From Antedon mediterranea (lineage: Eukaryota; Animalia; Echinodermata): a stretch of 64,000 bases of DNA. The stretch covers positions 30,003,499-30,067,498 of the forward strand of contig NC_092676.1 of assembly GCF_964355755.1 (NCBI RefSeq). Direction: 5' to 3'. The position numbers and the translations under genes are program-made. Every line of letters begins with the position of its first letter. Positions within the stretch are counted from its first letter, which is position 1. The notes beneath the pieces were generated by a model. The model saw nothing but the letters and a program-made list of their open reading frames with translations, made no database searches and was not told the origin of the DNA. Positions 12,978-47,400 of the stretch are shown here, piece by piece.

Positions 12978-14225
12978 AGAAATACTGTTATATGGTAGTT
13001 AATAATTAGGCAAAAGCCTTACTTTTATTTACTGTAACATTAAAAAAAAACCTCAAATATGTTTTTATTTCATTTCTAGGTAAGAAACAATAATTAATAA
13101 TAAACAAATAAATTTCCAACATAATTAAAAATAGTATTTTATTAATTTTTCTCCATTGTATGATATATTTTTTAGTATTTTGTATTATTTAAATCAAAAT
13201 GTGTAATAATAAATTATTTTTTCTATTTTCAGGAAAAACAGTGAAGATTGCAAGAGTTCCTGCTAGAATATGTAAAAAACAAAATGTATAACATTTATTA
13301 AGAAGCAGATGTTATTTTAAATTTCTTTAGAACTGCTTCATAATGAACAATGTCTTTCATTTACTAAATTTGTATCAATGGCCACCTGTTGCTGCAGGGT
13401 TTAGTGTCAATGGCCACCTGTTGCTGCAGGGTTTAGTGTCAGATGTAGATCTTTATTTTTACTGTATTTATATTATATCAATAGAAAGCAACAACATTAT
13501 TTATAATAAAACTTATTTTGTCGCTATGGCTTCTTGTGTGCAGTGCTTATTCACTACGAGGTTGATATTCAATGCAAAATATGTTATTTCTAATTATTTT
13601 AAATTTTTTTAAAATATAAATTCATATAAAATTGTTTCAACGTGTATTTTTCACCTTCATGAAAAACGAAAATTTGATTTCAAAAATAAATTCATATAAA
13701 AATACAAATTCTATTGTAATTAAAATATTTCATTTTGGAATGTTTGACACATTTAAGTAAATTGAAGACATTTAGGCTTTTTCTAAACTTTCACACCCAA
13801 GTAAGTACAATGGTAGTTAGATAATATTTACACATTAAACAATCAAAACTGAAATTCTCACTCCGATGTCTTAAACATTTTATGTATAATTAATGCTTTA
13901 TAATACTGTATTTAATTCAATAATTTACTAAAATGTTAAGGTTTAAGTTAAAATATTTGGTTAATAATTTGCATTTGCACATGGCAATCAAAAGGGAAAA
14001 AGAAAAATCACAATATGTTCATCAGTTTCATTTAGAAAACGTAACATGGTAGCTGTGCTCTGGATGTTGAGTACCAACAACATGAATTTGACTCTGAAAA
14101 ACAAAACATGTTTGTGTAAAATAACTACATAAAGCATTTTAAATTGGCCGAAATTTTGATATTGCTAACAAAAATATTTTATCGTAAAACTAATTTATTT
14201 GTTTGACTGGATTTTAGTGGTAACC

Positions 14226-18867: not shown

Positions 18868-19693
18868 ATGGCGTCACGTACCGGATCAAGACCAAGTGGC
18901 TCGGATGGTAGCGATTTTGATCACAGAGAGAGGGTAGCAGATCACTATAAGATAAGGTGCAGCAAACACTGTTTCTCTTAGTAGTATCCTTATTATGGCT
19001 TATTAATATTTTAGTTTTAAAAAATGTTTTCACTATTACTGTAGATGATTCATGGATTACTACTATGTCAAAATTGTTCTATTTACTGCAGTTACTGCAG
19101 GTGTTAATGGATAATTGCATAAACTTCTACATTGAAACCAATTACACCATGCATAATGTAGTTACATCAGTCACTGCAGTAAAATAAATTTGACACGATT
19201 CCTTTGTAGAAAACATAATTTGTATATTTCTCATTCTAGTGCTGTACTGAAGCCAAAAATGAAGATTTGTATGCTTCTGAACTTAGTTGTAGCTGTAAAA
19301 ATTGCCGCTCTGGATGGAGCTTTACACATGGATCTACTGCCCCCACCAATTGACACCATCAAGATCCAACCATGGCATTACATCATCATCTGTAGCTTTC
19401 TCTCATCAATCGTTGGCCTATCATCACTTTCCAAGAGCAATGGCGCACTTCTCAATGTTTACAAGACTGGAACATTGCTATTCTGCCTTGGTGGTACAGT
19501 GTTTGGTATGATTACTCATTACAAGGAACTCCAAATGTACCTACAGACTGGTAAAGGCCTTTTGATATTTGGTTTACCAGCTATTGTTTTGCAATATGTT
19601 GGACTTTCTATTTACTTGGTTTTTACACTGTTGAATTATCGTTATGCAAGTAAGTTATCGGCTGCATGGCACATGAAAACTAAACGAAAATAA
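18868..19693 (+). CDS. Hypothetical small multi-pass membrane protein (tentative 2-exon model: 18868-18955, 19252-19693)
   Basis: Exon 1 ATG…[29 protein letters not shown] with donor ATAAG|GTGCAG (phase 2). Acceptor ttctcattctag|T then [27 protein letters not shown]…; the 167-aa ORF has ~4 hydrophobic helices and ends TAA at 19693. No family recognised; coding status unproven. Confidence 0.3.
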
Positions 19694-20847: not shown

Positions 20848-21849
<1,002 letters not shown>

Positions 21850-22050
21850 TTAGAACAATCCGTTATCGTCACGAAAATCGTCGTCATCATCACTTTATCG
21901 TCTTTCCATTATCATTCTCTCTGTACATTCAAAAGCAGCATACATTAAAGCACCATCCACGGATTCGTTTACTAAAGGCCAACTCAGACAGCGTCGTGTG
22001 GCTCACGAGTCGTCTCGTCGGGAGAAAGTTAAACATGTTTAAAGTTTTCT

Positions 22051-22262
22051 CGACGACCTAAAAACTACGCCCGACGATATCTCAAAACGACTCGTCTCGT
22101 CGGAATTCAACTCGGACAGCGTCCCGACGACCTAAAAACTACGCCCGACGATATCTCAAAACGACTCGTCTCGTCGGAATTCAACTCGGACAGCGTCCCG
22201 ACGACCTAAAAAATACACCCGACGCTATCTCAAGACGACTCGTCTCGTCGAAGAATCAAGAC
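22051..22262. repeat. ~75-bp tandem repeat (~2.7 copies) inside alpha-tubulin intron 3
   Basis: cgacgacctaaaaactacgcccgacgatatctcaaaacgactcgtctcgtcggaattcaactcggacagcgtcc repeated. Confidence 0.75.
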
Positions 22263-22328
22263 GTTTCGTCGGGCCTCGTCGTACGGACGGCGCTGTATGA
22301 GTTGTATACATACACATATATTTCTTAC

Positions 22329-22477
22329 CAGTTTTCTGATCCTGTCCAAAGCAAGATCAATTGTGAGTTTCCCAACAGTATAGTGACCTCTAGCATAGTT
22401 GTTTGCCGCATCCTCCTTTCCTGTTATCAACTGCTCTGGGTGGAACAAGCGACTGTACATTCCAGTTCGAATTTCAT
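22329..22477 (-). CDS. Alpha-tubulin, coding exon (residues 76-125)
   Basis: cag|ATGAAATTCGAACTGGA… [50 protein letters not shown], donor CTG|GTAAGA. 149 nt, phase 1 in / 0 out. Confidence 0.9.
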
Positions 22478-22914
22478 CTGAAAAGTTGATATTAGATTTA
22501 CGTATTATGCGTATCAAAACTCAATTATATGGGAGATAATCGCAGATGTGTAATAACACAAAATAATACAAAATACATTGATTGGGAATAATAGACATGG
22601 AAAGACAACATGGAGCATGGGAATTATGGGGCGCCATAAGCAGCAAAAGTGTGTAGGGAATGGACAGAAAATGTATTAATATGAATAATTAAAGGTTGTA
22701 CACTACAAGAATGAAAAACAAACAAAGAGTACGTTAACAAGAGGGAATTGAAGAAAAGGCAAAACGAAAAAGAAAGAAGAAAACTAGTACAGGACGCTTT
22801 GTGACGAAAATGCAAACGAAAAAAAAGGATCGGAATATCAAAAACGACTGACACTTTGCGACACCATTATGTAAACATGGTTTAGCTAACTGAACGTACG
22901 TATACGTATTGTTA

Positions 22915-23145
<231 letters not shown>

Positions 23146-23985
23146 CTATAACAACAACAACAAAATGTTTATTTTTATTATGTTAATATTTTTTTTATTA
23201 TTTATTTATTATTCCTTTCAGTGATTAAAAAAAAAGAAGGCACTAAGACGAGGAAAACTATCGCCAAGAGGCGTGTCTTTCCAACATGAGAGTTACTTTT
23301 ATTTAGAAAACATTAAGGTATTCCAACACGTATTGGCAGTAGGCCTACAGTATTAAAATCATTGAATTCTTGAGAAATAATCCCAAACAAACAGCATACG
23401 GTATTATACGTGGGCATACAGGACACCACGTATCCCACTATTTTTTGGGCGGTTATATAATTTTCCCCTTGAAATATGAATGGATAAATAAAGTCTTTTG
23501 TTCAGTACTACTAAAACTTGTCAACATCTGACTGTACAGCTAATTTACTCTCATCGGTGCTAAAGTAGTGTACTGTAATAATATATACCTCAGCATATTA
23601 ATGACGGTTGTCTGATGAGCTATTGCAGAGTATAAAAGATATCCGCTTGATAACTATTATTGCATGACATTTCGTGCTCGGAATCACGTGACCAATGAAG
23701 ACTGAGATCAAACGCTAATAAATTCAACCCTTTATTTCTTCTAAATTACAAATTCCCATGAACAGAAAGTGTGTCTGTTGACGCGAGTGCACGCATTATG
23801 ATTGGCCGACTACATGGAAACATATTTTTGTTTGAGAAATGAAATCTACGATGTGGTTTTGAATGTCAGTTTTCAATATTTTTGTATTTGAATAATTTAT
23901 TTTTGTTTTTTTAGTTTAGATTTGTGTAATGAATAAACGTATTAAAAAAGATCAATTGATATAAAAGATAAATTATATGAAGTAT

Positions 23986-24228
23986 GATAGACTTGCCCCA
24001 AGTATGATAGACTTTCCCCAAGTATGATAGACTTGCCCCAAGTATGATAGACTTGCCCCAAGTATGATAGACTTGCCCCAAGTATGATAGACTTGCCCCA
24101 AGTATGATAGACTTGCCCCAAGTATGATAGACTTGCCCCAAGTATGATAGACTTGCCCCAAGTATGATAGACTTGCCCCAAGTATGATAGACTTGCCCCA
24201 AGTATGATAGACTTGCCCCAAGTCTGTA
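23986..24228. repeat. 20-bp minisatellite x12 (AAGTATGATAGACTTGCCCC)
   Basis: Perfect or near-perfect direct copies; the overlapping ORF-track peptides are artefacts. Confidence 0.9.
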
Positions 24229-25990: not shown

Positions 25991-28078
25991 AAACGCGGAG
26001 CGGACGGGCGGTTTCCGCTCAGGATAGATACAGATTCTACGTGGAACAAGCTACGCGGTTTTCCACTTACCGCTTTACCGCGTCTGCTGTGTAAATTGGC
26101 CTTAAGGATCACTTCTAAAATCCGCAGTACACTAAATCTAATTAATAGGACTGGTTTGTATTTTGATTCATTCAATCAATATTTTCAGAGATACGAAACC
26201 CGTTTCCAGCTAATATTTCTTCCGTTTACTCGTTACAATTCACACATATCATTAATAATTTGTTTGCATAGAAAAACTATAAAGATTGTTTTGAATTGTC
26301 AAAAAAAAAAAGTACAAGAATGGCAAAAAAATGTATATATACAGAAACAACCGCGGCCTCGCGTTAATTAAAGGCATGGTTGTTACAATTATTTCATGTT
26401 TTAATGGACAGGTTTTTTTACCAAACCGTTGTCGAATACTAACCGATCACTACGTATACTCATCAGCATATTGAATCTCATTCTTAATAAATCTAAACTG
26501 AGGATGAGGTACAATACCATTTTAAATTGATAATTTAAATTGAACATTAATGTGAATGAAAGCAGCAAAAAACATTAATCGCGTCAAAACTATACAATTT
26601 GACCATCCCAACTGTCAAAACAAATCTTGAAAATTAAAAAAAAAACTAAATTATTTATAATATAGCTGAATAAATGAACAATAATATGATAGCAACACTT
26701 ACCATTTTAAAAGTTTAGAATCTCGCAATGTTACGTTATGAAATGGAAGCAAGATGTAAGGCGTTGCCTTCTCCAATGTGATGCGTGGAAAGAGCACGGT
26801 TAATATGCACGCCTGTTTCAATCTACAACCCGATAGCATCGATCTAAAGTCCACGATGCGCATGCGTTAGCTGATTTGCTAGAATACTCCATGCTAGAAT
26901 TGAGGAATACAATTCAACTATAATTATATTGCCATTTCTGTGATATATATGAAAATGAATAATAAATCTGTCACGTGTGTATCAATCAAATCAAATCAAT
27001 CTTTTTATTCATCAAAAACAATACAATGCAATAGGGCTACTTATATTTAAATAAAATATTTTACATTATTTTGGCAAATATCTAATTTTGTCGGCAAACT
27101 TAGTGATACATGGTAACATTAACTAGTACATACATATTACTAGCAATTATTGTTTTACGATAATAGATTTTGTTATAATGTATATTTTAATTCCTAATGC
27201 TTTTAGAATTTATAATTAATATATGTGCGTTTTTGTCTCTGGAGGTTGAACTATTCTTCTAATATGACTCGATGAGTCATCTGCTTGAAATATTCATTAC
27301 GATCTATAGTCTGCGTTCACACAGTGATACAGAAGATTACGCGAGCGTGCAAACGATGTTATCATTGATACGCGACGTGCAACGCGGTGCTAGGTAAAAC
27401 ATGATGTTCACATTGAAATGAATCTCATCAATTACAGTACTGTACCTTACAATAATCATGTTGACAACAAATGCGATCCATTTCGCACTGCAGTTGAACT
27501 GTAATTAACATATTGTACCGTATGTAGTTTATAGTTAAAGCTATTATGTGGGAAGCGCGGGGTGAAGCGATTACAAAGATGAGCAACCAGATCAGAAACA
27601 AGATAATATTAATGTACTATGTTATATAGGCATACACACACACATTCAGCGCGGTATCTGTATGCCATGTGTTAAAGTACTCATGTCATTGTATACATTA
27701 TGTTGGAATGCATAAACGAAGTTCATTTTAAATGTCACAATGAAGCGTCGAATGAAGTTACTCATTTCAATGTTGAAGGAATTATTTTAAAAAAAATTCC
27801 TCCATGATTAAACTGATTAACTTAACGATTAAATCATCAATGCTAAACACAAAATAATTCTCATAAAAACATTTATTATGGCCTAAACATTAATAAAACC
27901 GAGTTCCAAAAATGTTATTATAAACAAATCTATAAATATTGAATGTTCTCAAATTTATTAATTTGCTTTCACACACATACATTATTAATTCCTATAAATG
28001 GTCAACAATACAATTATTTACATAGATTGCAGAGTACTACATGAATTTAAAAATATTGATAGCATAATTATTAATAAG

Positions 28079-29050
28079 CTAAAATTGTTCTTCACTACTT
28101 GATTCATCAGTGTCCATCATAATTTCTTGGTAATCTTTTTCTAAGCACGCCATGTCATATCGAGCATCAGTAAACTCGCCTTCTTCCATTCCTTCGCCAA
28201 CATACCAATGGATAAACGCGCGCTTCGCGTACATCAGGTCGAACTTGTGGTCAAGACGCGCCCAGGACTCGGAAATGGCGGTATTATTGCTGATCATGCA
28301 GACGGCACGTTGCATTTTTGCTTGGTCGTCATTTGGAAAGTTTGTCGGAGTTTGGTGGTTTATACTAACTTTAAAACCAGTTGGACACCAGTCAACAAAC
28401 TGAATGTTCTTGTTGTGTCTTAAGTTCGAAACTGCAATATTAACGTCCGTTGGTACTACGTCACCGCGGTAGAGCAGGCAACATGACATGTAGTGACCAT
28501 TCTGATGATTACATTTGACCATTTGACTACCTTTTTCAAAACAGTAGCTGGTAATTTCTGGGATTGAACACGTTTGGTGAAAAGATTTCTCTGAAGATAA
28601 TGTTGGTGCAAAAGCTGACGAAACGAAGTGGATTCTCGGAAAAGGAACTAAGTTTGTTTGGAGCTCACTCATGTCAAAGTTCAAAACTCCTTGGTATCTT
28701 AACGAAGCGGTTATTGACGATATTGTCTGTACAATTAGACGATTTAAGTTCAAGTAGGATGGACGCTCAATGTCAAGATCTCGCCTGCAGATCTCGTAAA
28801 TTGCTTCGTTGTCAAATACAAAAGAACAATCACTCTCATCTACGGCCGATTTCATCGCAAATACTGCATTATATGGCTCTACAACAGCAGTTGAAACGAG
28901 AGGTGACGGATGAATGGAAAACATAAACTTATTTATCTTGGAAAATTCTTTAGAAAGCTCGTCCATTAGTAAGGACGTGAAGCCGGAACCTGTCCCTCCT
29001 CCTAAACTGTTGAATATTAGACATCCTTGTAAACTGCTGCACTGGTCGGC
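28079..29050 (-). CDS. Divergent alpha-tubulin-like paralog, last coding exon
   Basis: Acceptor ttatctttttag|GCCGACCAGTGCAGC…. Encodes [36 protein letters not shown]…[42 protein letters not shown]. Retains GGGTGSG and the NxDxxE catalytic-loop Glu but is otherwise far more diverged than the neighbour copy, with no C-terminal Tyr. Confidence 0.85.
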
Positions 29051-29428
29051 CTAAAAGATAATAAACATAAAAATAGAATTAAGATGTAGACTATGGAGAG
29101 ACTACAGAGATCCATCATTCGCTAGAAACTCTGATCAAGGCAATCTAACACAGGATGCTGAGATCAAAGCGTTTATCTGTGGCTGCGACACGATCAGTTC
29201 CATACTTTAGCAGAACACCGCGCGCCGACGACGATGAGAATGCGCACAAGTACCGTAAAGATTGCAGTGCACCACTTGTATAGTTCTGAAGAGAACTGTT
29301 AAGTTTCTCAACGTTTCGATCATTATACTATATGATCTTCATAGGAGTGAGAAGCAAAATGTCAAGGAAATTTTTTTTTAGTTTCCAGAAAATACGTTTA
29401 AGCAGCAGCAAAGAGTGAAGAAACTTAC

Positions 29429-29577
29429 CAATTTTCTAACTTGTTCCATGACGTTATCGATAACGCGTTTTCCCACCGAGTAACGCCCTCTTGCGAAGTT
29501 GTTGGCAGCATCTTCTTTGTCGTTAATCATTTGACGTGGACTGAAAAGACGTTTATAACGTCCGGTTCGAATCTCAT
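29429..29577 (-). CDS. Alpha-tubulin-like paralog, middle coding exon (149 nt, same phase and length as in the canonical gene)
   Basis: tag|[67 protein letters not shown], donor TTG|GTAAGT. Confidence 0.8.
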
Positions 29578-30001
29578 CTATTTCAAAATAAAAGAAAACG
29601 AAAATTATTATTTTTTTACTTACGATTAAATTAAGAACCATGGTTACCCGGATTCAAATTATTCAATTTCTTCCAAAAAAATAGCAAACGTTGTAAGAAG
29701 CTTCTTAATTGATTATATATACAAATAAAGAAACTAAAAAAGGACTAAATTCAAGAAAGAAATACCAATTAAACAGTCAGGGGATTTCCTGGTACAAGTA
29801 TTCAAGTGGCACTTGTTTGCAGTATGGAAGGAAAAATATGTTTACCTCCATGTTTGCAGTAAGCCCAAACTAAACTTTAGAAACATTTTAAAGAGAATAT
29901 TTTGTAATACAGCATCTCATTTATATAATTTCTTCGGAAATAGATTCAGTACCGAGAAAAACACACTTATTAAAATATTAGTTGAATTAAAATAATGTTA
30001 C

Positions 30002-30224
30002 CTATAGCAGTTGGCTCTAAATCAACGAAGATTGCTCGTGGGACGTGTTTTCCAGACTCTAGTTCGTTAAAGAACGTTTTACAAGATGAGTCGTCGAGTT
30101 CTATAGTCGTTGATTTGCGTCCATTTGCGTCTATACCGTGCTCAAGACAATACAATTCCCAGCATGCATTGCCTGTCTGTACCCCGGCTTGCCCAATGTG
30201 AATAGATAGACAATCACGTTGAAC
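30002..30224 (-). CDS. Alpha-tubulin-like paralog, first located coding exon (N-terminal region; 223 nt like its homolog)
   Basis: (VQ)[72 protein letters not shown], donor ATAG|GTAACA. The 5' boundary (acceptor tgatag| at 30225-30226) and the position of the ATG are uncertain. Confidence 0.65.
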
Positions 30225-32394
30225 CTATCAAATAAAACAAAATTTACAATTTTGTTGTTTTTTAAAATTTATTTATATTTTTATTTTTTATATGAAGCCA
30301 GTGTTCAGTACTATACTACACAATCTATATTACTACCTATATACTGTTCTTCCACCGTGCCTAGTAAAACCATGGAGGTAAAAAAATTAATTTTTTTACC
30401 TCCATGGTAAAACCATGGAGGAAATATGGTATAACGTACCAATATCAATCAGCAATAAAAAGAACAATGAAAAAGTCGAACACGTGTAACATTTGAATAG
30501 AACTAGTAAAAAGTAGTACATATAATATATATGATTTCCTCATCTTTATCGTTTCAAATTAATTAACTTAATAACTTATATAATTACTTATATAATAATT
30601 ATATAATACTTATAATTATATAATACTTATAATTATATAATGCTTATATAATAATTATATAATACTTATAATTATATAATTATATAATACTTATATAATA
30701 CTTATATAATAATTACTTATATAATACTTATATAATAACTTATATAATAACTTATATAATTACAATAAATAGCTAAGATAATAATAATAAAAACAAACAC
30801 GTATCAAATGAATACATTTTTAATTCCTTTTATATACATATATATATATACTCAGGTTGAAATTATCAGACCGTTAGGATAGAGTGCTCAATACCAAGGT
30901 AGAGCATATATAGTTTTATAACATTTTATCGTACAAGTTGTTTCATATTTTAATGTAATTTTATATTGTAATATTTACTTGTGTTTTATCTTATTTATTT
31001 TTGAATTGTAAATTTAACAATGTTTACTTTGTTGCAATGAATGGATTTGATTTGATTTAATTCAATTTCAGTATATCACCGGGCGGTTTAGAATTAATGT
31101 TCTATGCCTGATGTGTTTATATATTATTATTAATTATTTATTATACAAATTTGATAACATTTAAAAACAACTTAAACAATACAATAAATAATTGTTTGTT
31201 GAAAGAAATAAGTCAATTTACTTTAAGAGAGTGTACGTGCAAGTCAGTACATGTTAACCCCTTACATACAAAAATGTTTTTATGCTACCGCAAACCATGC
31301 GCAAACCTGACCTAAACCATCGATGGATAAGCTGTAATTAAATACTGTACTGTATAATACTGTATGAAGTACTGCGTTAAATACTGTATTAAGTACTGCA
31401 TAAGTACTGTATTAAGTACTGTACTGTATAAGTAAAATTATTGCATACATACCATTTTGTATTGAAGAAACGTTTCTGTACCAATCTCAATATAATGTGT
31501 CTACTTCATAAAGTACACGATCATAATAACGAAATGCTATGTAAGCCTGCAATATATCCAATATTGCTATCTACTTCCTGTTAGTTTTAAATAAAGTTTA
31601 CTTGTTCAATTATGTAACACATAGACGGTCTTTATTATACTGTTACAAATTGTTAATTTACTTGTCAATCAAATAAATGATATCGTATCCGGTCGTTTAA
31701 TTCATGGTTCAATCACGAAATTTAATTATAATAATAATTATAATATATTGGTTTACAACAATTTAAAATAAATTAAAATAAATACGAACATAGAAATATA
31801 AATTAAAAGGAATTTTACACCTTTTGTCAGGAAAAAGAATTGACTGATTATTTTATTTTAAAGGACACTAACAAACAACCCGGAATTGTCCCCCTTCATA
31901 AGGGCTTTTGCGTGTAAAAAATAAATAAAATACAAATATATACCAAAAAGAAATAATAACTCAAGAAATTGAGCACTAAGGGATTGAAATTTTGGAAAAG
32001 ACAAAAAAAAAAATATTATAATAATGTAAATTACCTTCTTTACACGTTTTTTTAGATGACAACATTTATCTATACTATAAGAGATATAATTATTAAGTGT
32101 GAAGAAATTGTTAAAAAAACAAAAAAACCAATCAAGCAACATACTCTCAGATTTGTAGCGTCTAGTTACGTTTGTCAGGCCCATGGTCATACCACGAAGG
32201 AGCCTCTAATGATATTATAACCATGGAGTAAAGAACCGCTTATTTTATTCGTATGTATTGTCAAACCCTGATTCAACCATGGACCCTATGTTTAAATTTA
32301 AACGATACGGTACGTAACCATTGTCGTGGTTTTTGAATAGCTATTGAATCGATGAATCGATGAATCTGAAGGGTTTCGATCCAAGTCGGCCCTA

Positions 32395-33230
32395 AACCGT
32401 CTCGGCCAAAGTCAAGTCGGCCCCAAGTCAAGTCGGCCTCAAGTCAACTCGGCCTCAAGTCAACTCGGCCTCAAATCAACTCGGCCTCACGTCAACTCGG
32501 CCAAAAAATAATCGGTCAACTCGGCCCCGTTAAAGTATGGAACGCAAAAAGTGCAAATGAAGGGGATTGATAAAATAATATTTCTTCTTTTTTAACTATG
32601 AATAATTCTGACTTTTAATGAATATTATTATTTAGACAATATGGCCTAATATATTTAGCAAAAAAATAGGAATGATTTCACCAACTTTCCTTTTATTATT
32701 TACGTTTAATAAAATTTCGTAGCTGAGCCTCCCTGCGCGTTTGCCAGCTTTTTCGATATCTACAACTACTACGTGTTTTCGTTGACCGGGGGATTCCCCT
32801 TTTTTAAAAACGCAAATCATGCACAAAAACGATGTACGATCATTTTTTCTATGGCCAAATGGTGGAACGTAGGCCTCCGTCTTCGATTTCCTAAAATACG
32901 GTACCTGCACGTGTTTTTTTGTAACACGCGGGTACTTCTATTCATATCGGCAATGAGTTCATTTTTTTATATGATATTATATTTTTTATTTCTTCATTTT
33001 TTTTAAAACGTGGATAGTAAGAATCGTAATAATATTAAGCACTTTTTGCGTTGCATACTTTATTGTGGCCGAGTTGACCGATTAGTTTTTGGCCGAGTTG
33101 ACGTGAGGCCGAGTTGACTTGAGGCCGAGTTGACTTGAGGCCGAGTTGACTTGGGGCCGACTTGACGTGGGGCCGACTTGACTTTGGCCGAGACGGTTTG
33201 GGGCCGACTTGACCTGCACCCATCTGAAGA
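32395..33230. repeat. Large foldback structure: array of ~15-bp units (CAAGTCAACTCGGCCT) at 32395-32510 and its reverse-complement array (AGGCCGAGTTGACTTG) at 33060-33200, separated by ~550 bp
   Basis: Direct reading of both arms. Lies immediately 5' of the HS2ST-like start codon (33265). Confidence 0.8.
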
Positions 33231-33264: not shown

Positions 33265-36200
33265 ATGGACAAACTATCAAAGATAGTAATTTTGTTGGTT
33301 ATTTATAGCATTTTTATGAGCATCGGATATATCAAATATTACGGAGAACGACCAATCAACAAGCTTCCAACAACATCATGTTGCCGCTCAGACTCTAATA
33401 CGACGTCAGCTAAAAAAGGTAGACCTATAGGATTGTTTACGGTACGAGAGTAGAAGTTATGAAACATGGTTATAGCATTGAGTACCGACTTACTAATCTT
33501 TCCTGGGTGATGGTAGTCATTACTACTTTATTATTACGTCACAGTATTGTTATTGGGAATCCCAACAAAGGGGTTTCCTAATCGTAATAAAATATAGTAA
33601 TGTATGCGTACATTATCTTTTATGTATGTTTTTGTTTAACATTTAGCATTTTCCTAATATCAGAATTATTAGATTGACTGTCAGGCTAGAGGTATTCCCA
33701 ATCCCCCGAGTGATTTTCATTTTCTTGTTTTTTGTTTGCAGGCCTAATTTTCACCTTTATTATGGCAATTAGAGTTACGAGCATTTATTAACTTTACCTT
33801 TGATCCAGCCTCCCTAATAGTTTGCATACAACGTGTTTCTTATTTTTTATGATGGCGATCGATGTCCTGTAATTGTACTTGACGTGAATAGCCATTCATT
33901 ATAGCTTATTCAAATACATAGGCCTTGGTACCTCAATAGACACCATACCCTAAGCAAACAATTTGTAAAGAGAGATTTATTTTCATATACCGATTGGCAA
34001 ACGTAGGCATAACAATGGTTAAGTGGCTTGTATTATAATTGTAAAGTGTACTGAAATGATATATGGTATTTGAATATGATTTTAATTTTACAGAGAAATT
34101 GTTTCTCGATAAGAAATCAAGTGACATGAACAAGTTTATTTTGCCAATCAAATCAGACTCGAAAAACAAGAGTGGGCCTAATAGTATGCCTATTATTAAA
34201 TCAACGAATGGTCGACGAAAGTTTCCTAGGAGGAAAAAGAAGAGATTTTTTTATTGGGAAGAATTAAAACAGACAATGCATTATCTACCTTTAGGCAGCA
34301 CATTTGATACAAACACGGTGAGTTGTATGCATTATCTACCTTTAGGCAGCACATTTGATACAAACACGGTGAGTTGTATGCATTATCTACCTTTAGGCAG
34401 CACATTTGATACAAACACGGTGAGTTGTATATAAGAAAATATGTCATGATTACAAATTTGAATGTTATTACATACTATATAATGAATTTAGGTATTACAC
34501 CAAACGTTTTGAATGTTATTACATACTATATAATGAATTTAGGTATTACACCAAACGTTTTGAATGTTATTACATACTATATAATGAATTTAGGTATTAC
34601 ACCAAACGTTTTGAATGTTATTACATACTATATAATGAATTTAGGTATTACACCAAACGTTTTGAATGTTATTACATACTATAATGAATTTAGGTATTAC
34701 ACCAAACGTTTTGAATGTTATTACATACTATATAATGAATTTAGGTATTACACCAAACGTTTTGAATGTTATTACATACTATAATGAATTTAGGTATTAC
34801 ACCAAACGTTTTGAATGTTATTACATACTATATAATGAATTTAGGTATTACACCAAACGTTTTGAATGTTATTACATACTATAATGAATTTAGGTATTAC
34901 ACCAAACGTTTTGAATGTTATTACATACTATATAATGAATTTAGGTATTACACCAAACGTTTTGAATGTTATTACATACTATATAATGAATTTAGGTATT
35001 ACACCAAACGTTTTGAATGTTATTACATACTATATAATGAATTTAGGTATTACACCAAACGTTTTGAATGTTATTACATACTATATAATGAATTTAGGTA
35101 TTACACCAAACGTTTTGAATGTTTTAAAGAAATTGATGTCTGCCTTTGCAAGTTTCTTGCCGAGTCGTTCAAACCTGCTACAATCTTGCTTGGTGACTGC
35201 ACTGTGACGTCATTCACTGGCTGTCAAACTTCCGAGCAGAAATAAAACAAGAAAACAATGTATAGATATTACAACACTATAATATTGTTAAATCGTTACA
35301 TTTTGTGTATCTAGGAGGAACGAATAATCTTCAACCGGGTACCTAAGTGTGGAAGTCGAACTGTTTTAGATATTTTCAAATATTTAGCGAACAGAAACCA
35401 GTATAATATGATAAGCTCTACAATATATGGCCCTCTTCATCTACCAGAAAATAAAAAGGTAATGTTTTAAATTTGATTCAAAACAATGGTTCTTTTGTCT
35501 TTAAAAAAAAATTTCTGTGAAGTCATCTATATTGGCAAAAAATACGGTTTTCTTTTACGTTCACACCACCCCATGGTAGGACTAATATAAGCCAGTCGTG
35601 ATGGTATAGCGCTTTGATGTTGGATGATTATGATTCAACAACAATTGTTACAAGGGACGACAAAATATAGAGCACACGTATCATAGGTCATATTACAGTT
35701 AAAGTTATTTAATGTTGATTGATTTTTGTTTATCTATTTGTCACAATTTAGGCTTTGATAAAAGAATTAATTCTGGCGGCGGAACCTCCGGTTTTATTCC
35801 AGCGTCATATGCATTTTTTAAGTTTTCCAAAGTAAGTAGGTACTCTTCCCTGATACATAATTTAATCCGATAATCAGCTGTGTCGTGTGTGCGTGCGTGC
35901 ATGTTTTGGTTGGTTTTGGCTTAGGATGAGGGAAGTCAATAGCAAATGCACGACGCACAGTAATGTATCGAAAGTAGTCCTTAGCTAGAAAGAAAAAAAA
36001 AATTCATTATTACCTTATCCATAGCTCATCAAGAGTTAGATATATAAACATAATTCGAGATCCCATAGACAGGTTCATATCGGAGTACTACTTCATACGT
36101 TTTGGCGACGACAGAAATCCTATGAACTTTTCGGGTACAGATCAAGAGAAATATCAGGTAATTCTAATATTATTTATTTGATTGGTTGTAATTTTGACCA

Positions 36201-38460: not shown

Positions 38461-40998
38461 GGGGAGAGTGGGGTTGGTTGAATCGGAGGCAGGTTGAATC
38501 AGCCGTATTATTTCAGAAATTACAATTGGGTAAAAATTTGGTTGAACTACCTGGCAATTGGCTGACGTCACTCTACACGCTCACCAAAAATTATTCCGAT
38601 ACACGCTTGTTAACCTATTGTTCTAAAAATCCAGCTCGATTTGTGCCTGTAAGTACATTTTCCAATTTGTAAAGATTTTCGTTTTGTTTATTTATACTGA
38701 TTGTTTTTCCTGAAATCTTTAGTAGTCTTATATAACACATATATTAGGGTAAAATATTATATGATAAGCTTCTTGGTTGAGCCACGTATTTTTTTTCTAT
38801 GACACGAATTAATGCTGTCTGTGCCTATGGGGTTGGTTGAATCAGGTGATGCAACCTACCCCATCACGTGATGCAACCAACCCCAAGATAATAATGTGCA
38901 TTGTTTATGTTAATTTATGTAGTTTTAAACTTTTTCAACTCAATAATAGTAACTATAGAAATGTTCTTATACAGAATAGAAATTTAAAGATGTAAATTGT
39001 AAGAAATTAAACTACAACTACACTAGGCCTAGCCTAAAATTACAGTATTATTATTATTAAGTATTGTAAAAATATAAATAAACATCTTTCAAATAATTTA
39101 CTGTATTACTATAGGCATAGTTATTAAAATTAAATGATGGAGGCTACTATAGCCTATAGGGCCTAGTATACGACTGCCAGCGCTACCTATTTTTTTGTTA
39201 ATTCTAATGATCTTTCGTTTGCATTTTTCAGTTATCAACATACAGTCATGCCTAGAACTCATAAGAGAAAAACCGAACGGGGGAAAAACCCAGAAATGTT
39301 AAAACGAGCAGCACGAATTGTGATATTGGAGAACCTGTCTGTAAGATCAGTGGCAAAAGACTTTGATGTCAATTACAGTACACTCCAAAGACTTGTCAAC
39401 AAACTAAAGAAAGGTATGGATATTAAAATGTATGAAAATATAATAAGGTATTAAAATATTACTATTAGCTAACTGTATACATTAAACTATATTTTCAGAT
39501 GCCGATGGTGCTTTGAATTACCCTCTTGAAGTGACAAGAGCATTAACTGACACACACGTTGGATATGTCCGAAATCGACAGGTGTTTAGTGACAACCAAG
39601 AGGAAATGCTGGTTCAATATATATTGAGAGCTGCTGCTATGTATTTTGGTTTGACGCCGGATGATGTAAGGAAGTTTGCATATGAGCTAGCCATAGCATA
39701 TGAAGTAGATTTGCCACAAAGTTGGACTGAAAACCAGAAAGCAGGGAAGGATTGGTTTTGTTCTTTTTTGAAGCGTCACCCAAATGTTAGTATAAGAGCT
39801 GCAGAAGCGACAACTGATCAACCAGAAGCAGAAGATGAGCCAATTGCAGAAAATGAGCCAGTGGCAGAAAACGAGCCAGTAGCAGAAAATGAGCCATTGG
39901 CAGAAAACGAGCCAGTAGCAGAAAATGAGCCAGTGTCGGAAGATGATTTTGAAATTCCACCACCTATCAATGCAAGTCAACTATCAACACCCAATGAAAT
40001 TTTAGAGGATGAACCGTCCACATCTGCTGCATGCCGAAGATTGCCATTTAGCCCGGAAACTATTCGGCCATTTCCAGTTGCTCCACCAAGAAAAAACAAA
40101 GGCCATGGCAGAAAAACTTTAAAATCTGCAATTCTGACCGACACCCCAGAAAAAGAGGCAATAATGAAAAGGAAATCTGCAAGTAAAAGTAAGGGTAAAT
40201 CAAAATCGAAGTCGAAAACGCCAAACAACACTCAAAAAGAAAAACCAAGTAAGGAAACTGACTGGTATTGTGAAATTTGTGGAGAAAGCTACTCAAATAG
40301 CAAACAGGGAGAAAAGTGGGTAAAGTGTTTAGCGGAGGGTTGTGAAGAATGGTCACATGTGGAGTGCACCGAAAATGGACGCACATTCATTTGCTCGGTT
40401 TGCGAGTAACCAGTTTTTCATGTAAACATAAACATTTACTGTATATACTTAATTACATTTTTTGTTGTGCCAAGTTTGTTCCTGTAATTCTAATATATTA
40501 TTTTAAACAACTCAAATAAACAACTTAGGCTAGTTAAAAAGCCTAACTCTTTAAACAATTCATATTTATGTTATGGTGCTTTTTACGTGTAATAATAACT
40601 AACATTTTAAAAACATAATAGTGCAGCAGCTTTATATATCAGGAAATAGTTTTTTTAATAGTAGTTTATTAATTAATATATATTTGTTATAATGTGGTTT
40701 TCATCTTAATAAATAAATATTAAAGATATCATTGTATTTATTACATATTATTTCATGATTCAACCAACCCCACTATGTGATTCAACCTACCCCGATGAAG
40801 GGGTTGGTTGAATCGGTCGACTCATCTTGGTAATTTGCTTCTAACTTCTAAATATGTTTTCTGATGTCCATATAATTCACTGTGTTGCCTGAAGGAATGT
40901 TAGTGAACATACACTGTTAATTACAGCTTAACCAATGCAACCAAAAAAAAATTATGGTCAAAAATAGAAAATTTGATTCAACCAACCCCACTCTCCCC
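38461..40998. mobile_element. pogo/Tigger-like (Tc1-mariner superfamily) DNA transposon derivative, 2538 bp, 24-bp perfect TIRs, TA target-site duplication
   Basis: Left end TA|GGGGAGAGTGGGGTTGGTTGAATC (38461-38484); right end GATTCAACCAACCCCACTCTCCCC|TA (40975-40998) is an exact reverse complement. Subterminal hairpin copies of GGGGTTGGTTGAATC at 38825-38885 and 40755-40830. Internal ORF encodes CENP-B/pogo-type DNA-binding domains. Confidence 0.7.
39248..40409 (+). CDS. Element-encoded protein, 358 aa, 2 exons (39248-39413, 39499-40409): psq-type HTH + CENP-B/Tc5-type HTH, acidic EPVAEN repeat, C-terminal C4HC3 (PHD-like) zinc finger; no DDE catalytic domain
   Basis: ATG 39248. MLKRAARIVILENLSVRSVAKDFDVNYSTLQRLVNK (psq HTH). 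Donor AAAG|GTATGG, acceptor ttttcag|AT. RQVFSDNQEEMLVQYI…LTPDDVRKFAYELA…QSWTENQKAGKDWFCSFLKRHPNVSIRAAEATT (HTH_Tnp_Tc5/CENP-B). Six 18-bp repeats GAGCCAGTAGCAGAAAAC. Ends WYCEICGESYSNSKQGEKWVKCLAEGCEEWSHVECTENGRTFICSVCE*. Confidence 0.7.
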
Positions 40999-44400: not shown

Positions 44401-47400
44401 AAACTCTCCAATTACAGGATGGATAAACTATTACGAATTATCATGCTTATAAACTAAGTCTCATTTGAAGCTTAAGCTTGGTTCCCACTAGAACGTAACG
44501 CAAGGACGTAAACGCAACGCAATCGTTTTAACCAATGACAAGCGAAGTTATAGACAGTTAGCAATCACAAGCGAATAAGCCATCGCTTGTGATTGGTCAA
44601 TTCACTTGCGTTGCATTACGTCCTTGTGTTGCGTCGCTAGTGGGAAGGAACCACGCTTCAGGGAGTGGAGTTGAAAAAGGTGTGAGTTAGCTACAGCTCC
44701 ACTATTTGGCAGAATATTTTAAATAAAATTCAATGTGGTGTTTTTAAGCTTTACATTTACTGTCCATTGTTATGATCTTTTAACATTTCTACCTTAATTA
44801 TAATTTTTTCAATTTAGTGACAGAGGAAACAGCATATGAGCGGCAGTATACATACGACAGTACGATCGAGGAAGATGAAAACGGTTGTGTGCGTGTACTC
44901 ATGCGTATCAAACCAATTATTACAACACCGCCACCAACGTACAATCCATACAAAGCTTTACGTAAGACAGAAAAGTACATAAATGCGAAGACTTGTATGA
45001 ATGCAAACACTACAGGATTCTACACACAACCTATTCAGCCAATTAATTGGAAAGATTTCAATATTACAATTTTGTTCACTGGTAGGCACATTTATTCTGC
45101 AATATATAAATATTTACCAATTATTTACATTGTTACAGGGATCTTACAGAGAAAAGTAATTTTCTGTAGTCGCAAGACCCTTTGAAAAAATCGTATTATC
45201 TTAACTTGAGAAAAAAGTGTCTGTTTGACATGAATATAAATAATAAAATCAAATTATTTGCATTTTTTGTTTACAAATATCATAATTGATCTTGTTTTAA
45301 CTTTAAATTTGTAGGTGAAATTTTCAACTATGTTGAAGTAAATCAAGTTTTAGTTTCAGAAGTTTATGTAAACATAACACAAAGTACTAAACTCATTAAC
45401 CAAATAAGACGTGTATTTGGTAAGTAAAGTTTTTAAACTTCTTTATCTCTTCTTTAATAAATAAGTTCAGTTTTAGGATAGAATTGTTTTGATATTTGAT
45501 TTTCCGTTAATTTGTTATCTTTCTATGAGACAGGCACCATTATTTCCACTTGTTTTGTGAATGAAATAAAGTTAACTTATCTTAGAAATATAATTTCTTA
45601 ATGTTTTTAAATTTTTAGCCATTCAAAAAATACCAATAAAAAGACCAGGTTACTGGGTATACAACAATCCAACATTTTCCGATCGTAATTTCACCCTGAA
45701 ACATGAACAAATACTTCACCACGGTGTTTTGATCCACCCCGAAGCGTTCAACCGCGGTTTCACCATGACGATTGATGTTCCAAAGGTTGATGATGTATAC
45801 TTGGCCAAATTTGAAAACATCACACCATGGTGGAAGACGGGAAAACATTTTGCAGCGATATCAGATTACCATATGTTTAATTCAACCTATAATACAAATG
45901 GCGACGAATTAACTTTGGAAACTGTAATAGATAAGATGGAAGGTTATTATGATGGGGATAGCAGATTGCCAGATATCACTTCTGAATGGGTTGTCGAACA
46001 AAATGATTACGGAGAAGAAATAATTGTTCAGTGTATATTTTCCGTCACACCATTTCTCAATATTAAAGATGTTGTTTGGCGCGACCACGGAAGATTAAAT
46101 TTTTATTTGTATTCTCGAGTTCTTTCATCAGTGGTGGCTGATAATGAGCTTAAATTTTCTATCACAGCCGATTTTAAGTTCCCACCAGGAGATGAACTAA
46201 TTCTGTATGCGTCTAGGACGAGCACCGTGACTGTTCAACCGTTTGTGCCACGTATTCCGCCAGTCAATGCCACTCAGGAACCAGACTGTCAAGATGACAT
46301 CACATATACTTTTGAATTATTCAACATTCTGGAATTTTCTATCAAGGATATCTGGATGAACGTGACTTGTCCCGATTTAGTTATCATACCGTCGACGCTT
46401 GAAGTTGAAATTATTCACCATGTTAATGTCACAAGTGATAGCAACGCTGATATCATGCTTACTACAGATCAAACATATCACATACATTACACAGAGTTGG
46501 CTCCTCAAGTACTTGCAAGAGGGCAGCAGACATTTCGACTGGTCAACAACGGTATTGCGCCGCATTACTCCATTGTTTGCAAAGTTTATCTTTCATTTCG
46601 CAAGGATAATAAGGCGTTAGTCCTTCCATATTTGGCAGGTGTCAGTAATGAACTGTTTACACCTGGCATTGAGTATATTTTATATGGGCGTGATTTAATT
46701 GAGAAGGAGGAGGAAGTTATGATATTGACAACACCAATGAGTAGGACTACTGTGTTGTTAGGAAATGCCACAGCTGAAATTCCTATTATGGTGGATGAAG
46801 AAGTAAGTTATGGCGTGGAAGAAGAGACAACACCTCTAATGTACTCGATGCCTGTTGGGTCAAATGCAACATTCATTATAAATATAACAGTACCAGAAAT
46901 AACCACAGAGGTCAGTGGTAAATAGTAGTAGTACTGTAAGATCTATTTTCCAATGATGCACATGTCTAAAAAGCTCTGTCAAATCAAATTAGTTTGTGTG
47001 CCCAAATATGCTAGTGATATGCTTAAATATGGTAGTGATATGCCCAAATATGCTAGTGATATGCTTAAATATGGTAGTGATCAGATTGCATTAACATTTA
47101 TTTGGAACAGTCCTAGAAAAAAGGTAAAAAACAAGCATATATTTACAATAAGTTAAATGAGTTACATCATAATATCCATATATGGACACATCTCATTTTT
47201 CTTGTCAAACTGGTTTGATAGTGTAGACAGAGCTCAATTGTTAAAATGTACTTTTTAAATGTTGATCTTGATTTTATTTTGTGTATATTAATTATACAGT
47301 AGTAGTTTTTAATTATGCAAAAATGTGTCATTATTCCTTCTATTCAATAAGATTTCATCTTTTTTTAGATTGAAATTTATTTTGGTATGCCAGCAGCAGT

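What the first reader, a model, noticed from the sequence alone, without database searches (positions are those of the whole stretch)
28079..30224. Tandem alpha-tubulin pair: a canonical copy and a highly diverged paralog with identical exon architecture
Both genes lie on the minus strand ~5 kb apart and share the 223/149/~975-nt exon pattern, so they arose by tandem duplication. The upstream copy is nearly canonical. The downstream copy keeps GGGTGSG and the catalytic Glu but has diverged through most surface loops ([25 protein letters not shown] vs [27 protein letters not shown]). It has a two-codon deletion in that N-terminal loop. Its acidic tail is shortened (…[11 protein letters not shown]) with a terminal Phe instead of the tyrosination-cycle Tyr. 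This pattern is typical of specialised, e.g. germline- or cilia-specific, tubulin isotypes, and could be neofunctionalisation or early decay.
Basis: partly seen in the sequence, partly recalled or inferred. Interest (0 to 1): 0.6.

Follow-up and report, generated by a model that had tools for sequence, protein, structure and literature searches.

The report
Divergent alpha-tubulin gene in feather stars
Next to an ordinary alpha-tubulin gene, this feather-star (Antedon mediterranea) window carries an intact, unusually diverged second alpha-tubulin gene that selection has kept in two crinoid species, so it is a working specialised tubulin rather than a decaying copy.

Summary
Two alpha-tubulin genes lie head-to-tail on the minus strand. 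The divergent one has exons at 32184-32170, 30224-30002, 29577-29429 and 29050-28079. The canonical one has its ATG at 26705-26703 and exons at 23145-22923, 22477-22329 and 21825-20848. The spliced divergent model has no stops or frameshifts and equals RefSeq XP_071957039.1 (Antedon mediterranea) exactly.

The paralogs are 64% identical. The divergent copy is 60-65% identical to every other alpha-tubulin tested, including a fungal one. An 80%-identical ortholog sits in the same position in Anneissia japonica. Between these orthologs dN/dS is about 0.07, so decay and assembly chimerism are rejected.

All GTP-contact residues, D251 and E254 are kept. The lateral-contact loops and the tail were rebuilt and then conserved. 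K40 and the EEY end are absent.

The 223/149/~975 exon pattern is also found in a fish alpha-tubulin gene, so it does not prove a recent local duplication. The origin is unresolved; grouping with vertebrate TUBAL3 behaves like long-branch attraction. Expression and cell type could not be tested.

Surprisingly, the Anneissia ortholog carries E254N, a substitution that abolishes GTP hydrolysis in human tubulin. Verdict: a real but ordinary kind of feature, an undescribed crinoid tubulin isotype.

The parts
32170..32184 (-). Divergent alpha-tubulin, exon 1 coding part (ATG GGC CTG ACA AAC = MGLTN, followed by a GT donor). A second in-frame ATG lies 6 nt upstream at 32190.
   Evidence: Sequence. 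It matches the N-terminus of RefSeq XP_071957039.1. Use of this exon has not been verified independently by transcripts.
30002..30224 (-). Divergent alpha-tubulin, exon 2 (223 nt). It encodes [14 protein letters not shown]...LEPTAI and includes the shortened H1-S2 loop.
   Evidence: AG acceptor, GT donor. (alignment).
29429..29577 (-). Divergent alpha-tubulin, exon 3 (149 nt).
28079..29050 (-). Divergent alpha-tubulin, exon 4 (972 nt including the TAG stop). It carries GGGTGSG, the T7 loop with D251/E254, the M-loop, H11-H12 and the tail ...[11 protein letters not shown].
27954..27959 (-). AATAAA polyadenylation-signal candidate, about 120 nt after the divergent gene's stop codon.
   Evidence: This is a motif match only.
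26759..26812 (-). Block upstream of canonical exon 1 that is conserved with Anneissia (83% over 54 nt). It lies in the promoter or 5'UTR of the canonical gene. A GCGCATGCGCA palindrome sits about 50 nt further upstream in both species.
26703..26705 (-). Canonical alpha-tubulin, ATG at the end of exon 1 (ATG|GTAAGT).
   Evidence: The arrangement is the same in Anneissia and in a teleost.
22923..23145 (-). Canonical alpha-tubulin, exon 2 (223 nt).
22329..22477 (-). Canonical alpha-tubulin, exon 3 (149 nt).
20848..21825 (-). Canonical alpha-tubulin, exon 4 (978 nt including the stop). The protein ends in ...EEGEEY.
   Evidence: The encoded protein is 100% identical to the Anneissia neighbour over this exon.

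Best explanation
The feature is a functional, selectively maintained, highly diverged alpha-tubulin isotype gene of crinoids (Antedon mediterranea XP_071957039.1). It lies directly 5' of a conventional alpha-tubulin gene.

Shown:
- The gene has four exons, canonical splice sites and an intact 452-codon reading frame.
- An ortholog exists in the same tandem position in Anneissia japonica.
- Purifying selection is strong.
- Every residue that contacts the non-exchangeable GTP is conserved, as are D251 and E254.

Inferred:
- The protein folds as alpha-tubulin, binds GTP, pairs with a beta-tubulin and enters microtubules.
- There it can still trigger hydrolysis of GTP on the neighbouring beta subunit.
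- It differs from housekeeping alpha-tubulin in three ways:
  1. Both sides of the lateral protofilament contact were rebuilt and then conserved: the M-loop, and the H1-S2 and H2-S3 loops.
  2. The inter-dimer face around T7/H8/H10 has changed.
  3. The modification sites have changed: no K40, a shorter serine-rich tail with fewer Glu, and no -EEY end.
- The likely result is microtubules with altered lattice or stability and a different modification and partner code, used in a restricted cell type or stage. The cell type is unknown.
For: - Gene model: intact ORF, AG/GT at every junction, identical to the RefSeq protein.
- Family: Pfam Tubulin 8e-59 and Tubulin_C 3e-43. The best solved-structure matches are alpha-tubulin chains at 2.5e-209 over residues 4-447.
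- Ortholog: Anneissia XP_033113227.1 is 80% identical and has the same intron positions (9/226/149/972). It is followed on the same strand by a canonical 450-aa alpha-tubulin, 3.65 kb from its stop to that gene's ATG.
- Selection on the divergent orthologs: dN 0.107, dS about 1.5, omega 0.07. On the canonical orthologs: dN 0.010, omega 0.01.
- Differences by codon position in the divergent orthologs: 13%, 7.6% and 50%.
- Sites: at 270 columns that are at least 97% conserved in a panel, the divergent copy differs at 57 and the neighbour at 1. Thirty-eight of these are also changed in Anneissia, 28 to the same residue.
- All N-site residues tested are unchanged: G10, Q11, A12, Q15, D69, E71, D98-N101, S140, G143-G146, T179, E183, N206, Y224 and N228.
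- Region identity, paralog versus ortholog: M-loop 41% vs 88%, H1-S2 loop 31% vs 81%, tail 23% vs 62%.
- The two orthologs evolve at similar rates: 30 vs 20 unique changes, chi-square 2.0.
Against: - No transcript or protein evidence could be obtained with these tools. Expression rests on the existence of RefSeq models in two species.
- dS is near saturation, and the Nei-Gojobori and YN00 methods failed for the divergent pair. Omega is therefore approximate, although the codon-position skew is independent of it.
- Only two species are available, so selection cannot be assigned to individual branches.
- The Anneissia ortholog has lost the catalytic Glu (E254N). This shows that at least one canonical alpha-tubulin function is dispensable in this lineage.
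- The structure prediction failed (mean pLDDT 39.5 with a shallow 32-sequence alignment). The fold rests on sequence identity to solved tubulins.
Confidence: 0.85

Rival explanations
1. The divergent copy is a decaying duplicate: a pseudogene, or a gene under relaxed selection on its way to loss.
For: It has a very long branch. It is 60-65% identical to every alpha-tubulin tested, including a fungal one. Its GC3 is lower and its codon bias weaker than the neighbour's (GC3 0.41 vs 0.475, effective number of codons 54 vs 47.6). The Anneissia ortholog has lost E254.
Against: The ORF is intact and all splice sites are canonical. An ortholog is retained in the same position in a species separated by dS of about 1-1.5. 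Omega is about 0.07, and changes are concentrated at third codon positions. Twenty-eight otherwise invariant positions are fixed to the same new residue in both species.
Confidence: 0.03
2. The gene is not a crinoid-specific duplicate of its neighbour. It belongs to an old deuterostome paralog line, specifically as an ortholog of vertebrate TUBAL3 (tubulin alpha-like 3).
For: Neighbour-joining groups the crinoid pair with four mammalian TUBAL3 proteins at 79-81% bootstrap under weak rate correction. TUBAL3 shares 7-8 of the 62 crinoid-derived states, for example I5L, H107R, T109S and Y272F. If the rate had been constant, the stem branch would be about three times the age of the Antedon-Anneissia split.
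Against: Support falls to 10% as the gamma shape parameter drops to 0.25, which is the signature of long-branch attraction. Raw identity to TUBAL3 (60-61%) is lower than to canonical alpha-tubulins (63-65%). The number of shared states scales with each lineage's own divergence: nematode 5, louse 4, bird 6. In the 120 best-scoring hits listed by each of two searches of 5.8 billion proteins, only the two crinoid proteins exceed 67% identity.
Confidence: 0.12
3. The protein is a microtubule-stabilising or hydrolysis-poor subunit. Its changed T7/H8/H10 face slows or abolishes GTP hydrolysis at the inter-dimer contact, and this gives long-lived microtubules.
For: Several positions around the catalytic Glu are changed in both species: L252M, T253S/N, F255L/I and Y262F. 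H10 is heavily substituted. The Anneissia ortholog carries E254N. In recombinant human tubulin this substitution abolishes hydrolysis and gives microtubules without catastrophes (PMC8764682). That ortholog does not evolve faster than the Antedon one.
Against: The copy in this window keeps D251 and E254, so nothing shows reduced activity in Antedon. The effect of the flanking substitutions is unknown. The Anneissia state comes from a single assembly.
Confidence: 0.1
4. The divergence is an assembly or annotation artefact, such as a chimera or a mis-joined contig.
For: None was found in the window. The Anneissia scaffold does carry a gap-flanking duplicate of the gene's 3' end.
Against: The same gene, with the same exon structure and the same neighbour, is present in two independent assemblies of different species. 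The reading frame runs unbroken across the exons with consistent divergence along its whole length.
Confidence: 0.01

Closest known systems
Drosophila alphaTub67C (alpha4-tubulin), the maternal, oogenesis-specific divergent alpha-tubulin
   Same: Both are strongly diverged alpha-tubulin isotypes that coexist with conventional copies. Both have a distinct C-terminal tail ending in Phe instead of Tyr. alphaTub67C is not glutamylated (PMC10335831). The crinoid tail likewise has fewer Glu and lacks the -EEY end.
   Different: There is no evidence of orthology. The crinoid protein is about equally distant from all alpha-tubulins. The terminal Phe is not conserved in the crinoid lineage, since Anneissia ends in Ile. 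The expression pattern of the crinoid gene is unknown. alphaTub67C was not itself aligned here, so this comparison rests on the cited paper.
Vertebrate TUBAL3 (tubulin alpha-like 3)
   Same: Both are fast-evolving alpha-tubulin paralogs. TUBAL3 is about 76% identical to canonical alpha-tubulin and shares a handful of substitutions with the crinoid protein (I5L, V9I, H107R, T109S, D160E, T193S, Y272F). Neighbour-joining groups the two at about 80% bootstrap under simple distances.
   Different: The grouping dissolves under stronger rate-heterogeneity correction. Identity is only 60-61%. The shared states number no more than expected from TUBAL3's own divergence. The H1-S2 loop and tail sequences of the two are unrelated.
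Conventional animal alpha-tubulins (e.g. TUBA1A/1B, and the neighbouring gene in this window)
   Same: They share the same fold family, the same intron positions, the full set of GTP-contact residues, D251/E254, and the alpha-specific S9-S10 segment without gaps.
   Different: The crinoid protein differs at 57 of 270 near-invariant positions, against 1 for the neighbour. The H1-S2 loop is 2 residues shorter and has no Lys at position 40. The N-terminus is extended (MGLTNVQ-). The tail is shorter and serine-rich and lacks -EEY. Its protein evolution is about ten times faster.
Engineered E254N / E254A human alpha-tubulin (hydrolysis-dead mutants)
   Same: The Anneissia ortholog of this gene naturally carries Asn at position 254. 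E254N was made in human tubulin to block GTP hydrolysis (PMC8764682).
   Different: The Antedon gene in this window keeps Glu254. The natural protein differs at many other positions, and its activity has not been measured.

Membership tests
alpha-tubulin (tubulin/FtsZ superfamily) | Tubulin GTPase domain plus tubulin C-terminal domain | tested here: met
   PF00091 at 8.1e-59 and PF03953 at 2.8e-43, both far above the curated cut-offs.
alpha-tubulin (tubulin/FtsZ superfamily) | Closest to alpha-tubulin chains over the full length | tested here: met
   All 60 best solved-structure matches shown are alpha-tubulin chains. The best has E 2.5e-209 and covers residues 4-447. All named top database hits are alpha-tubulins.
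alpha-tubulin (tubulin/FtsZ superfamily) | GGGTGSG signature and the residues that contact the non-exchangeable GTP (loops T1-T6, helix H7) | tested here: met
   All 20 N-site positions tested are identical to the panel consensus in both crinoid orthologs. The list of contact positions comes from my knowledge of tubulin structures, not from a tool.
alpha-tubulin (tubulin/FtsZ superfamily) | Catalytic T7-loop residues D251 and E254, which activate GTP hydrolysis on the adjacent beta subunit | tested here: met
   D251 and E254 (codon GAG) are present in the window copy. E254 is Asn in the Anneissia ortholog.
alpha-tubulin (tubulin/FtsZ superfamily) | Forms a heterodimer with beta-tubulin and polymerises | not testable with these tools
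   This needs biochemistry. It is inferred only from conservation of the nucleotide site.
alpha-tubulins of the tyrosination/detyrosination cycle | C-terminal -EEY (or -EEF) end | tested here: not met
   The tail ends in -SEEQF in Antedon and -SEDEI in Anneissia. Among 218 retrieved alpha-tubulins, 153 end in Y and 11 in F.
K40-acetylatable alpha-tubulins | Lys at position 40 of the luminal H1-S2 loop | tested here: not met
   No Lys aligns at position 40. Two alignments place different residues there (Ile, Thr) because the loop is 2 residues shorter. A Lys sits 1-2 positions earlier, depending on the alignment. The canonical neighbour also lacks K40 (S40; A40 in Anneissia).
TUBAL3 orthology group | Monophyly with vertebrate TUBAL3 that survives correction for rate heterogeneity, and exclusive shared derived residues | tested here: inconclusive
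   Bootstrap support is 0.79-0.81 with simple distances and falls to 0.10 at gamma alpha 0.25. Shared derived states number 8 of 62, in proportion to TUBAL3's own divergence.
Recent tandem duplicate of the neighbouring gene | Sequence-level sister relationship to the neighbour, or features shared only with it | tested here: not met
   Bootstrap for divergent plus neighbour is 0%. The divergent copy shares 0-1 of 92 derived states with the neighbour. The shared exon pattern also occurs in a teleost gene. Adjacency and orientation are conserved in two crinoids, so an old local duplication remains possible.
Processed or unprocessed pseudogene | Disrupted reading frame, or neutral evolution (omega near 1) | tested here: not met
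   The 452-codon ORF is intact and has introns. Omega is about 0.07.
Germline- or cilia-specific isotype | Restricted expression in gonad or embryo, or in ciliated cells | not testable with these tools
   No transcript data were accessible. A scan for an RFX X-box consensus found no site near the promoter and no excess in the window: 15 matches against 19 expected.

The most novel reading that the evidence does not exclude
This is a crinoid-restricted alpha-tubulin lineage whose lateral and inter-dimer surfaces were rebuilt, and which tolerates loss of the catalytic Glu. The Anneissia ortholog naturally carries E254N, the substitution that makes human tubulin unable to hydrolyse GTP. On this reading the isotype builds intrinsically stable, low-turnover microtubules, and the Anneissia protein would be a natural hydrolysis-dead alpha-tubulin.
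Probability: 0.12. Interest if true: 0.75.

Novelty: new member of a known kind. Interest (0 to 1): 0.4.

Why it matters
Alpha-tubulin is among the most conserved eukaryotic proteins. The neighbouring gene is 98% identical between the two crinoids and 94% identical to a fish alpha-tubulin. A paralog that has changed about a fifth of the near-invariant positions and is still under strong constraint is a natural experiment. It shows which tubulin surfaces can be rebuilt: the lateral loops, the inter-dimer face and the tail. It also shows which cannot: the GTP pocket.

It adds an echinoderm example to the small set of strongly diverged alpha isotypes, such as alphaTub67C and TUBAL3. It also shows that these lineages tend to change the same subset of positions.

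The E254N state in the Anneissia ortholog, if real and expressed, would let the role of GTP hydrolysis be studied in a naturally evolved tubulin.

For genome annotation, the automatic name 'tubulin alpha-1B chain-like' hides a distinct lineage.

Tried and rejected
1. AlphaFold2 on a 32-sequence alignment gave an unusable model: mean pLDDT 39.5, pTM 0.31. The alignment is shallow and nearly uniform. No fold search was run on it, and this is not evidence about foldability.
2. Transcript evidence could not be obtained. An exact look-up of the RefSeq protein found no contig on record. Each ortholog's 90% cluster holds only the RefSeq entry.
3. Further orthologs were sought with two searches of the 5.8-billion-protein set, one with the full protein and one with an exon-4 profile. 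Among the 120 best-scoring hits listed by each, only the two crinoid proteins exceed 67% identity.
4. The neighbour-joining phylogeny could not place the lineage. The apparent TUBAL3 affinity behaves as long-branch attraction.
5. An X-box (RFX) scan, used as a hint of ciliary regulation, showed no enrichment and no site at the promoter.
6. Nei-Gojobori and YN00 estimates failed for the divergent pair because synonymous sites are saturated. Only the maximum-likelihood estimate and the codon-position counts are reported.
7. The literature searches returned no paper describing crinoid tubulin isotypes. The one crinoid genome paper searched gave no divergence date.
8. The extra copy of the Anneissia gene's 3' end was rejected as a real duplication. 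It is 98% identical and directly follows an N-gap.
Full report
**What is there.** The window is eukaryotic, about 35% G+C. The divergent protein is 100% identical to RefSeq XP_071957039.1, 'tubulin alpha-1B chain-like' of the feather star Antedon mediterranea. A tblastn of alpha-tubulin proteins against the window finds exactly two alpha-tubulin loci, both on the minus strand.

The divergent gene has four coding exons, all with AG/GT boundaries and no internal stop:
- 32184-32170, encoding MGLTN. A second in-frame ATG lies at 32190.
- 30224-30002 (223 nt).
- 29577-29429 (149 nt).
- 29050-28079 (972 nt including the stop).

The conventional gene has its ATG as the last three bases of a 5' exon at 26705-26703. 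I located this exon through a 54-nt block conserved with Anneissia. Its other exons are 23145-22923 (223 nt), 22477-22329 (149 nt) and 21825-20848 (978 nt).

In the direction of transcription the divergent gene comes first. Its stop codon lies only 1.37 kb from the ATG of the conventional gene.

**Check of the observation.**
- The quoted loop peptides, the two-codon deletion, GGGTGSG, Glu254 and the shortened ...[11 protein letters not shown] tail are all present.
- The two proteins are 64% identical.
- Pfam finds both tubulin domains in each protein.
- The best solved-structure matches are alpha-tubulin chains at E 2.5e-209.

Exon 2 is 223 nt in both genes only because the 6-nt loop deletion in the divergent copy is offset by an acceptor site 6 nt further upstream, which adds Val-Gln. 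The Anneissia ortholog has the same shifted acceptor but a one-codon deletion, and so has 226 nt.

**Is it alive or decaying?** Anneissia japonica, another comatulid crinoid, has an 80%-identical protein, XP_033113227.1. Its gene has the same intron positions. A canonical 450-aa alpha-tubulin gene with 3/223/149/978 exons follows it on the same strand, 3.65 kb from its stop to that gene's ATG. The tandem order divergent-then-canonical therefore predates the split of the two species.

| Ortholog pair | dN | dS | omega |
|---|---|---|---|
| Divergent genes | 0.107 | about 1.5 | about 0.07 |
| Canonical neighbours | 0.010 | about 1.0 | about 0.01 |

dS is close to saturation, so omega is approximate. 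A model-free count agrees with it. The divergent orthologs differ at 13%, 7.6% and 50% of first, second and third codon positions. The two orthologs evolve at similar rates: 30 against 20 unique changes, chi-square 2.0.

The gene is therefore under strong purifying selection. Its protein evolves about ten times faster than its neighbour's. This rejects pseudogene status and early decay. The presence of the gene in two independent assemblies rejects chimerism.

**What changed and what did not.** I compared the proteins at 270 alignment columns that are at least 97% conserved in a panel of 18 conventional alpha-tubulins.
- The neighbour differs at 1 column.
- The Antedon divergent protein differs at 57 and the Anneissia one at 50.
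- Thirty-eight columns are changed in both, 28 of them to the same residue.

All positions that contact the non-exchangeable GTP are unchanged, and so are D251 and E254 in Antedon. These positions are G10, Q11, A12, Q15, D69, E71, D98-N101, S140, G143-G146, T179, E183, N206, Y224 and N228. The list comes from my knowledge of tubulin structures.

Some regions differ most from the neighbour yet are well conserved between the two divergent orthologs:

| Region | Identity to neighbour | Identity between orthologs |
|---|---|---|
| M-loop | 41% | 88% |
| H1-S2 loop | 31% | 81% |
| C-terminal tail | 23% | 62% |

From established tubulin structure, the M-loop of one protofilament contacts the H1-S2 and H2-S3 loops of the next. 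Both sides of that contact carry lineage-specific substitutions: T56L and E90R at near-invariant columns, H88S, and Y282F and E284Q. I infer that lateral contacts were rebuilt early and then held.

Residues around the catalytic Glu are also changed in both species (L252M, F255L/I, Y262F), and much of H10 is changed.

Neither ortholog has Lys at position 40. Neither has the -EEY end. The terminal Phe of Antedon is Ile in Anneissia, so it is not a lineage feature.

GC3 and codon bias are lower than in the neighbour: GC3 0.41 against 0.475, and effective number of codons 54 against 47.6. This is weakly consistent with lower or restricted expression.

**Origin.** A teleost (Sparus aurata) alpha-tubulin gene has exactly 3/223/149/978. 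The pattern is therefore at least as old as the echinoderm-vertebrate ancestor and says nothing about a recent local event.

At the sequence level:
- The divergent pair is 60-65% identical to every alpha-tubulin tested, including a fungal one. The neighbour, by comparison, is 86% identical to that fungal protein.
- The pair shares 0-1 of its 92 derived states with the neighbour.
- A grouping of the pair with the neighbour has 0% bootstrap support.

I tested orthology with vertebrate TUBAL3, using authentic TUBAL3 proteins. Neighbour-joining joins the two long branches at about 80% bootstrap. Support falls to 10% as the gamma correction is strengthened. Raw identity is only 60-61%. The 7-8 shared derived states are in proportion to TUBAL3's own divergence. 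I read this as long-branch attraction, but the question stays open.

Among the 120 best-scoring hits listed by each of two searches of 5.8 billion proteins, only the two crinoid sequences exceed 67% identity. On present data the lineage is crinoid-restricted. An old duplication on the crinoid stem, followed by a burst of change and then constraint, is the simplest reading.

**Mechanism.**
- Shown: an intact, spliced, conserved and constrained alpha-tubulin gene with a complete GTP pocket and catalytic loop.
- Inferred: the protein pairs with a beta-tubulin and enters microtubules. There its rebuilt lateral loops, its changed inter-dimer face and its different tail alter lattice properties, stability, and the binding of modifying enzymes and partners. 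It has no K40, fewer Glu, conserved Ser residues and no EEY.
- Unknown: the cell type.

The closest functional analogue is Drosophila alphaTub67C. It is maternal, divergent, ends in Phe and is not glutamylated (PMC10335831). That is an analogy, not a family assignment.

**An unexpected point outside the window.** The Anneissia ortholog has Asn (AAT) where all conventional alpha-tubulins have the catalytic Glu254 (GAG). The surrounding motif occurs 240 times in the 218 retrieved alpha-tubulins. Anneissia's is the only non-Glu residue in an intact sequence context. E254N abolishes GTP hydrolysis in recombinant human tubulin and gives microtubules without catastrophes (PMC8764682). The Antedon gene in this window keeps Glu. 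This supports, but does not establish, the idea that the isotype serves stable rather than dynamic microtubules.

**Verdict.** The interpretation needs correction on three points: the gene is not decaying, the exon pattern is uninformative, and the upstream/downstream labels are reversed. In kind it is ordinary, a specialised tubulin isotype that automatic annotation has already modelled. It is undescribed as a lineage and unusually divergent for alpha-tubulin.

Noticed in passing
L001 (Anneissia japonica VUNX01045305.1) 12197-13168, codon for residue 254: The Anneissia ortholog of the divergent gene has Asn (AAT) in place of the catalytic Glu254. It is the only intact-context exception among 240 motif instances in the 218 retrieved alpha-tubulins. 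E254N is a known hydrolysis-dead mutation in human tubulin.
   Followed up: partly
window 20848-23145 and 26703-26705 (-): The 'canonical' neighbour lacks the K40 acetylation site (S40 in Antedon, A40 in Anneissia). Its exon-4 protein (325 aa) is 100% identical between the two crinoids even though the gene's synonymous divergence is about 1.
   Followed up: partly
window 26759-26812 and about 26856-26866 (-): A 54-nt block upstream of the canonical gene's ATG exon is 83% conserved with Anneissia. A GCGCATGCGCA palindrome, which resembles an NRF1-type site, lies just upstream in both species. This is probably the core promoter. No comparable conserved non-coding block was found for the divergent gene.
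   Followed up: partly
window 32382-32554 and 33039-33211: A foldback-type inverted repeat has 173-nt arms that are 95% complementary, built from a 16-nt tandem unit (GGCCGAGTTGACTTGA), with a 484-nt spacer. It ends about 190 bp upstream of the divergent gene's first exon. It may be a mobile element sitting in the promoter region.
   Followed up: no
window 30369-30408: A perfect 40-nt palindrome (ACCATGGAGGTAAAAAAATT/AATTTTTTTACCTCCATGGT) lies in intron 1 of the divergent gene. A related 30-nt sequence occurs in intron 2 at 29835-29864. An AT-rich microsatellite-like array lies at 30566-30791.
   Followed up: no
window 23980-24223, 22051-22250, 34276-35123: There are three tandem repeat arrays. 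A 20-bp unit repeats 12 times in intron 1 of the canonical gene. A 74-bp unit repeats 2.7 times in its intron 3. A 51-bp satellite repeats 13 times (98% matches) upstream of the tubulin pair.
   Followed up: no
window 19190-19693 (+), 2624-3913 (+), 8415-9059 (+): Flanking ORFs match other gene families: a Jagunal-family exon (PF07086, 6e-19), a sulfotransferase ORF of 429 aa, and a glycoside hydrolase family 65 exon.
   Followed up: no
window 39248-40409 (+): ORFs with HTH_psq and Tc5-transposase DNA-binding domains look like the remnant of a pogo/Tc5-type transposon. They include a repetitive acidic (ENEPVA)n stretch and a Cys-rich C-terminus.
   Followed up: no
window 45729-53985 (+): Several long ORFs of 133, 340, 398 and 773 aa are rich in Cys and in N-x-S/T sites. 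The three longest (the only ones scanned) have no Pfam match. They look like exons of a large secreted or surface protein of unknown family.
   Followed up: no
L001 13913-14974: A copy of the 3' end of the Anneissia divergent gene, 98% identical over 648 nt, directly follows a run of N. This is a scaffold-gap artefact, not a third gene.
   Followed up: yes
panel alignment, not a window coordinate: Independent fast-evolving alpha-tubulins tend to change the same positions. TUBAL3 is changed at 26-28 of the 62 crinoid-derived columns (42-45%), against 62 of 363 conserved columns overall (17%). This suggests a common set of 'relaxable' sites, and it drives long-branch attraction in tubulin trees.
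   Followed up: partly
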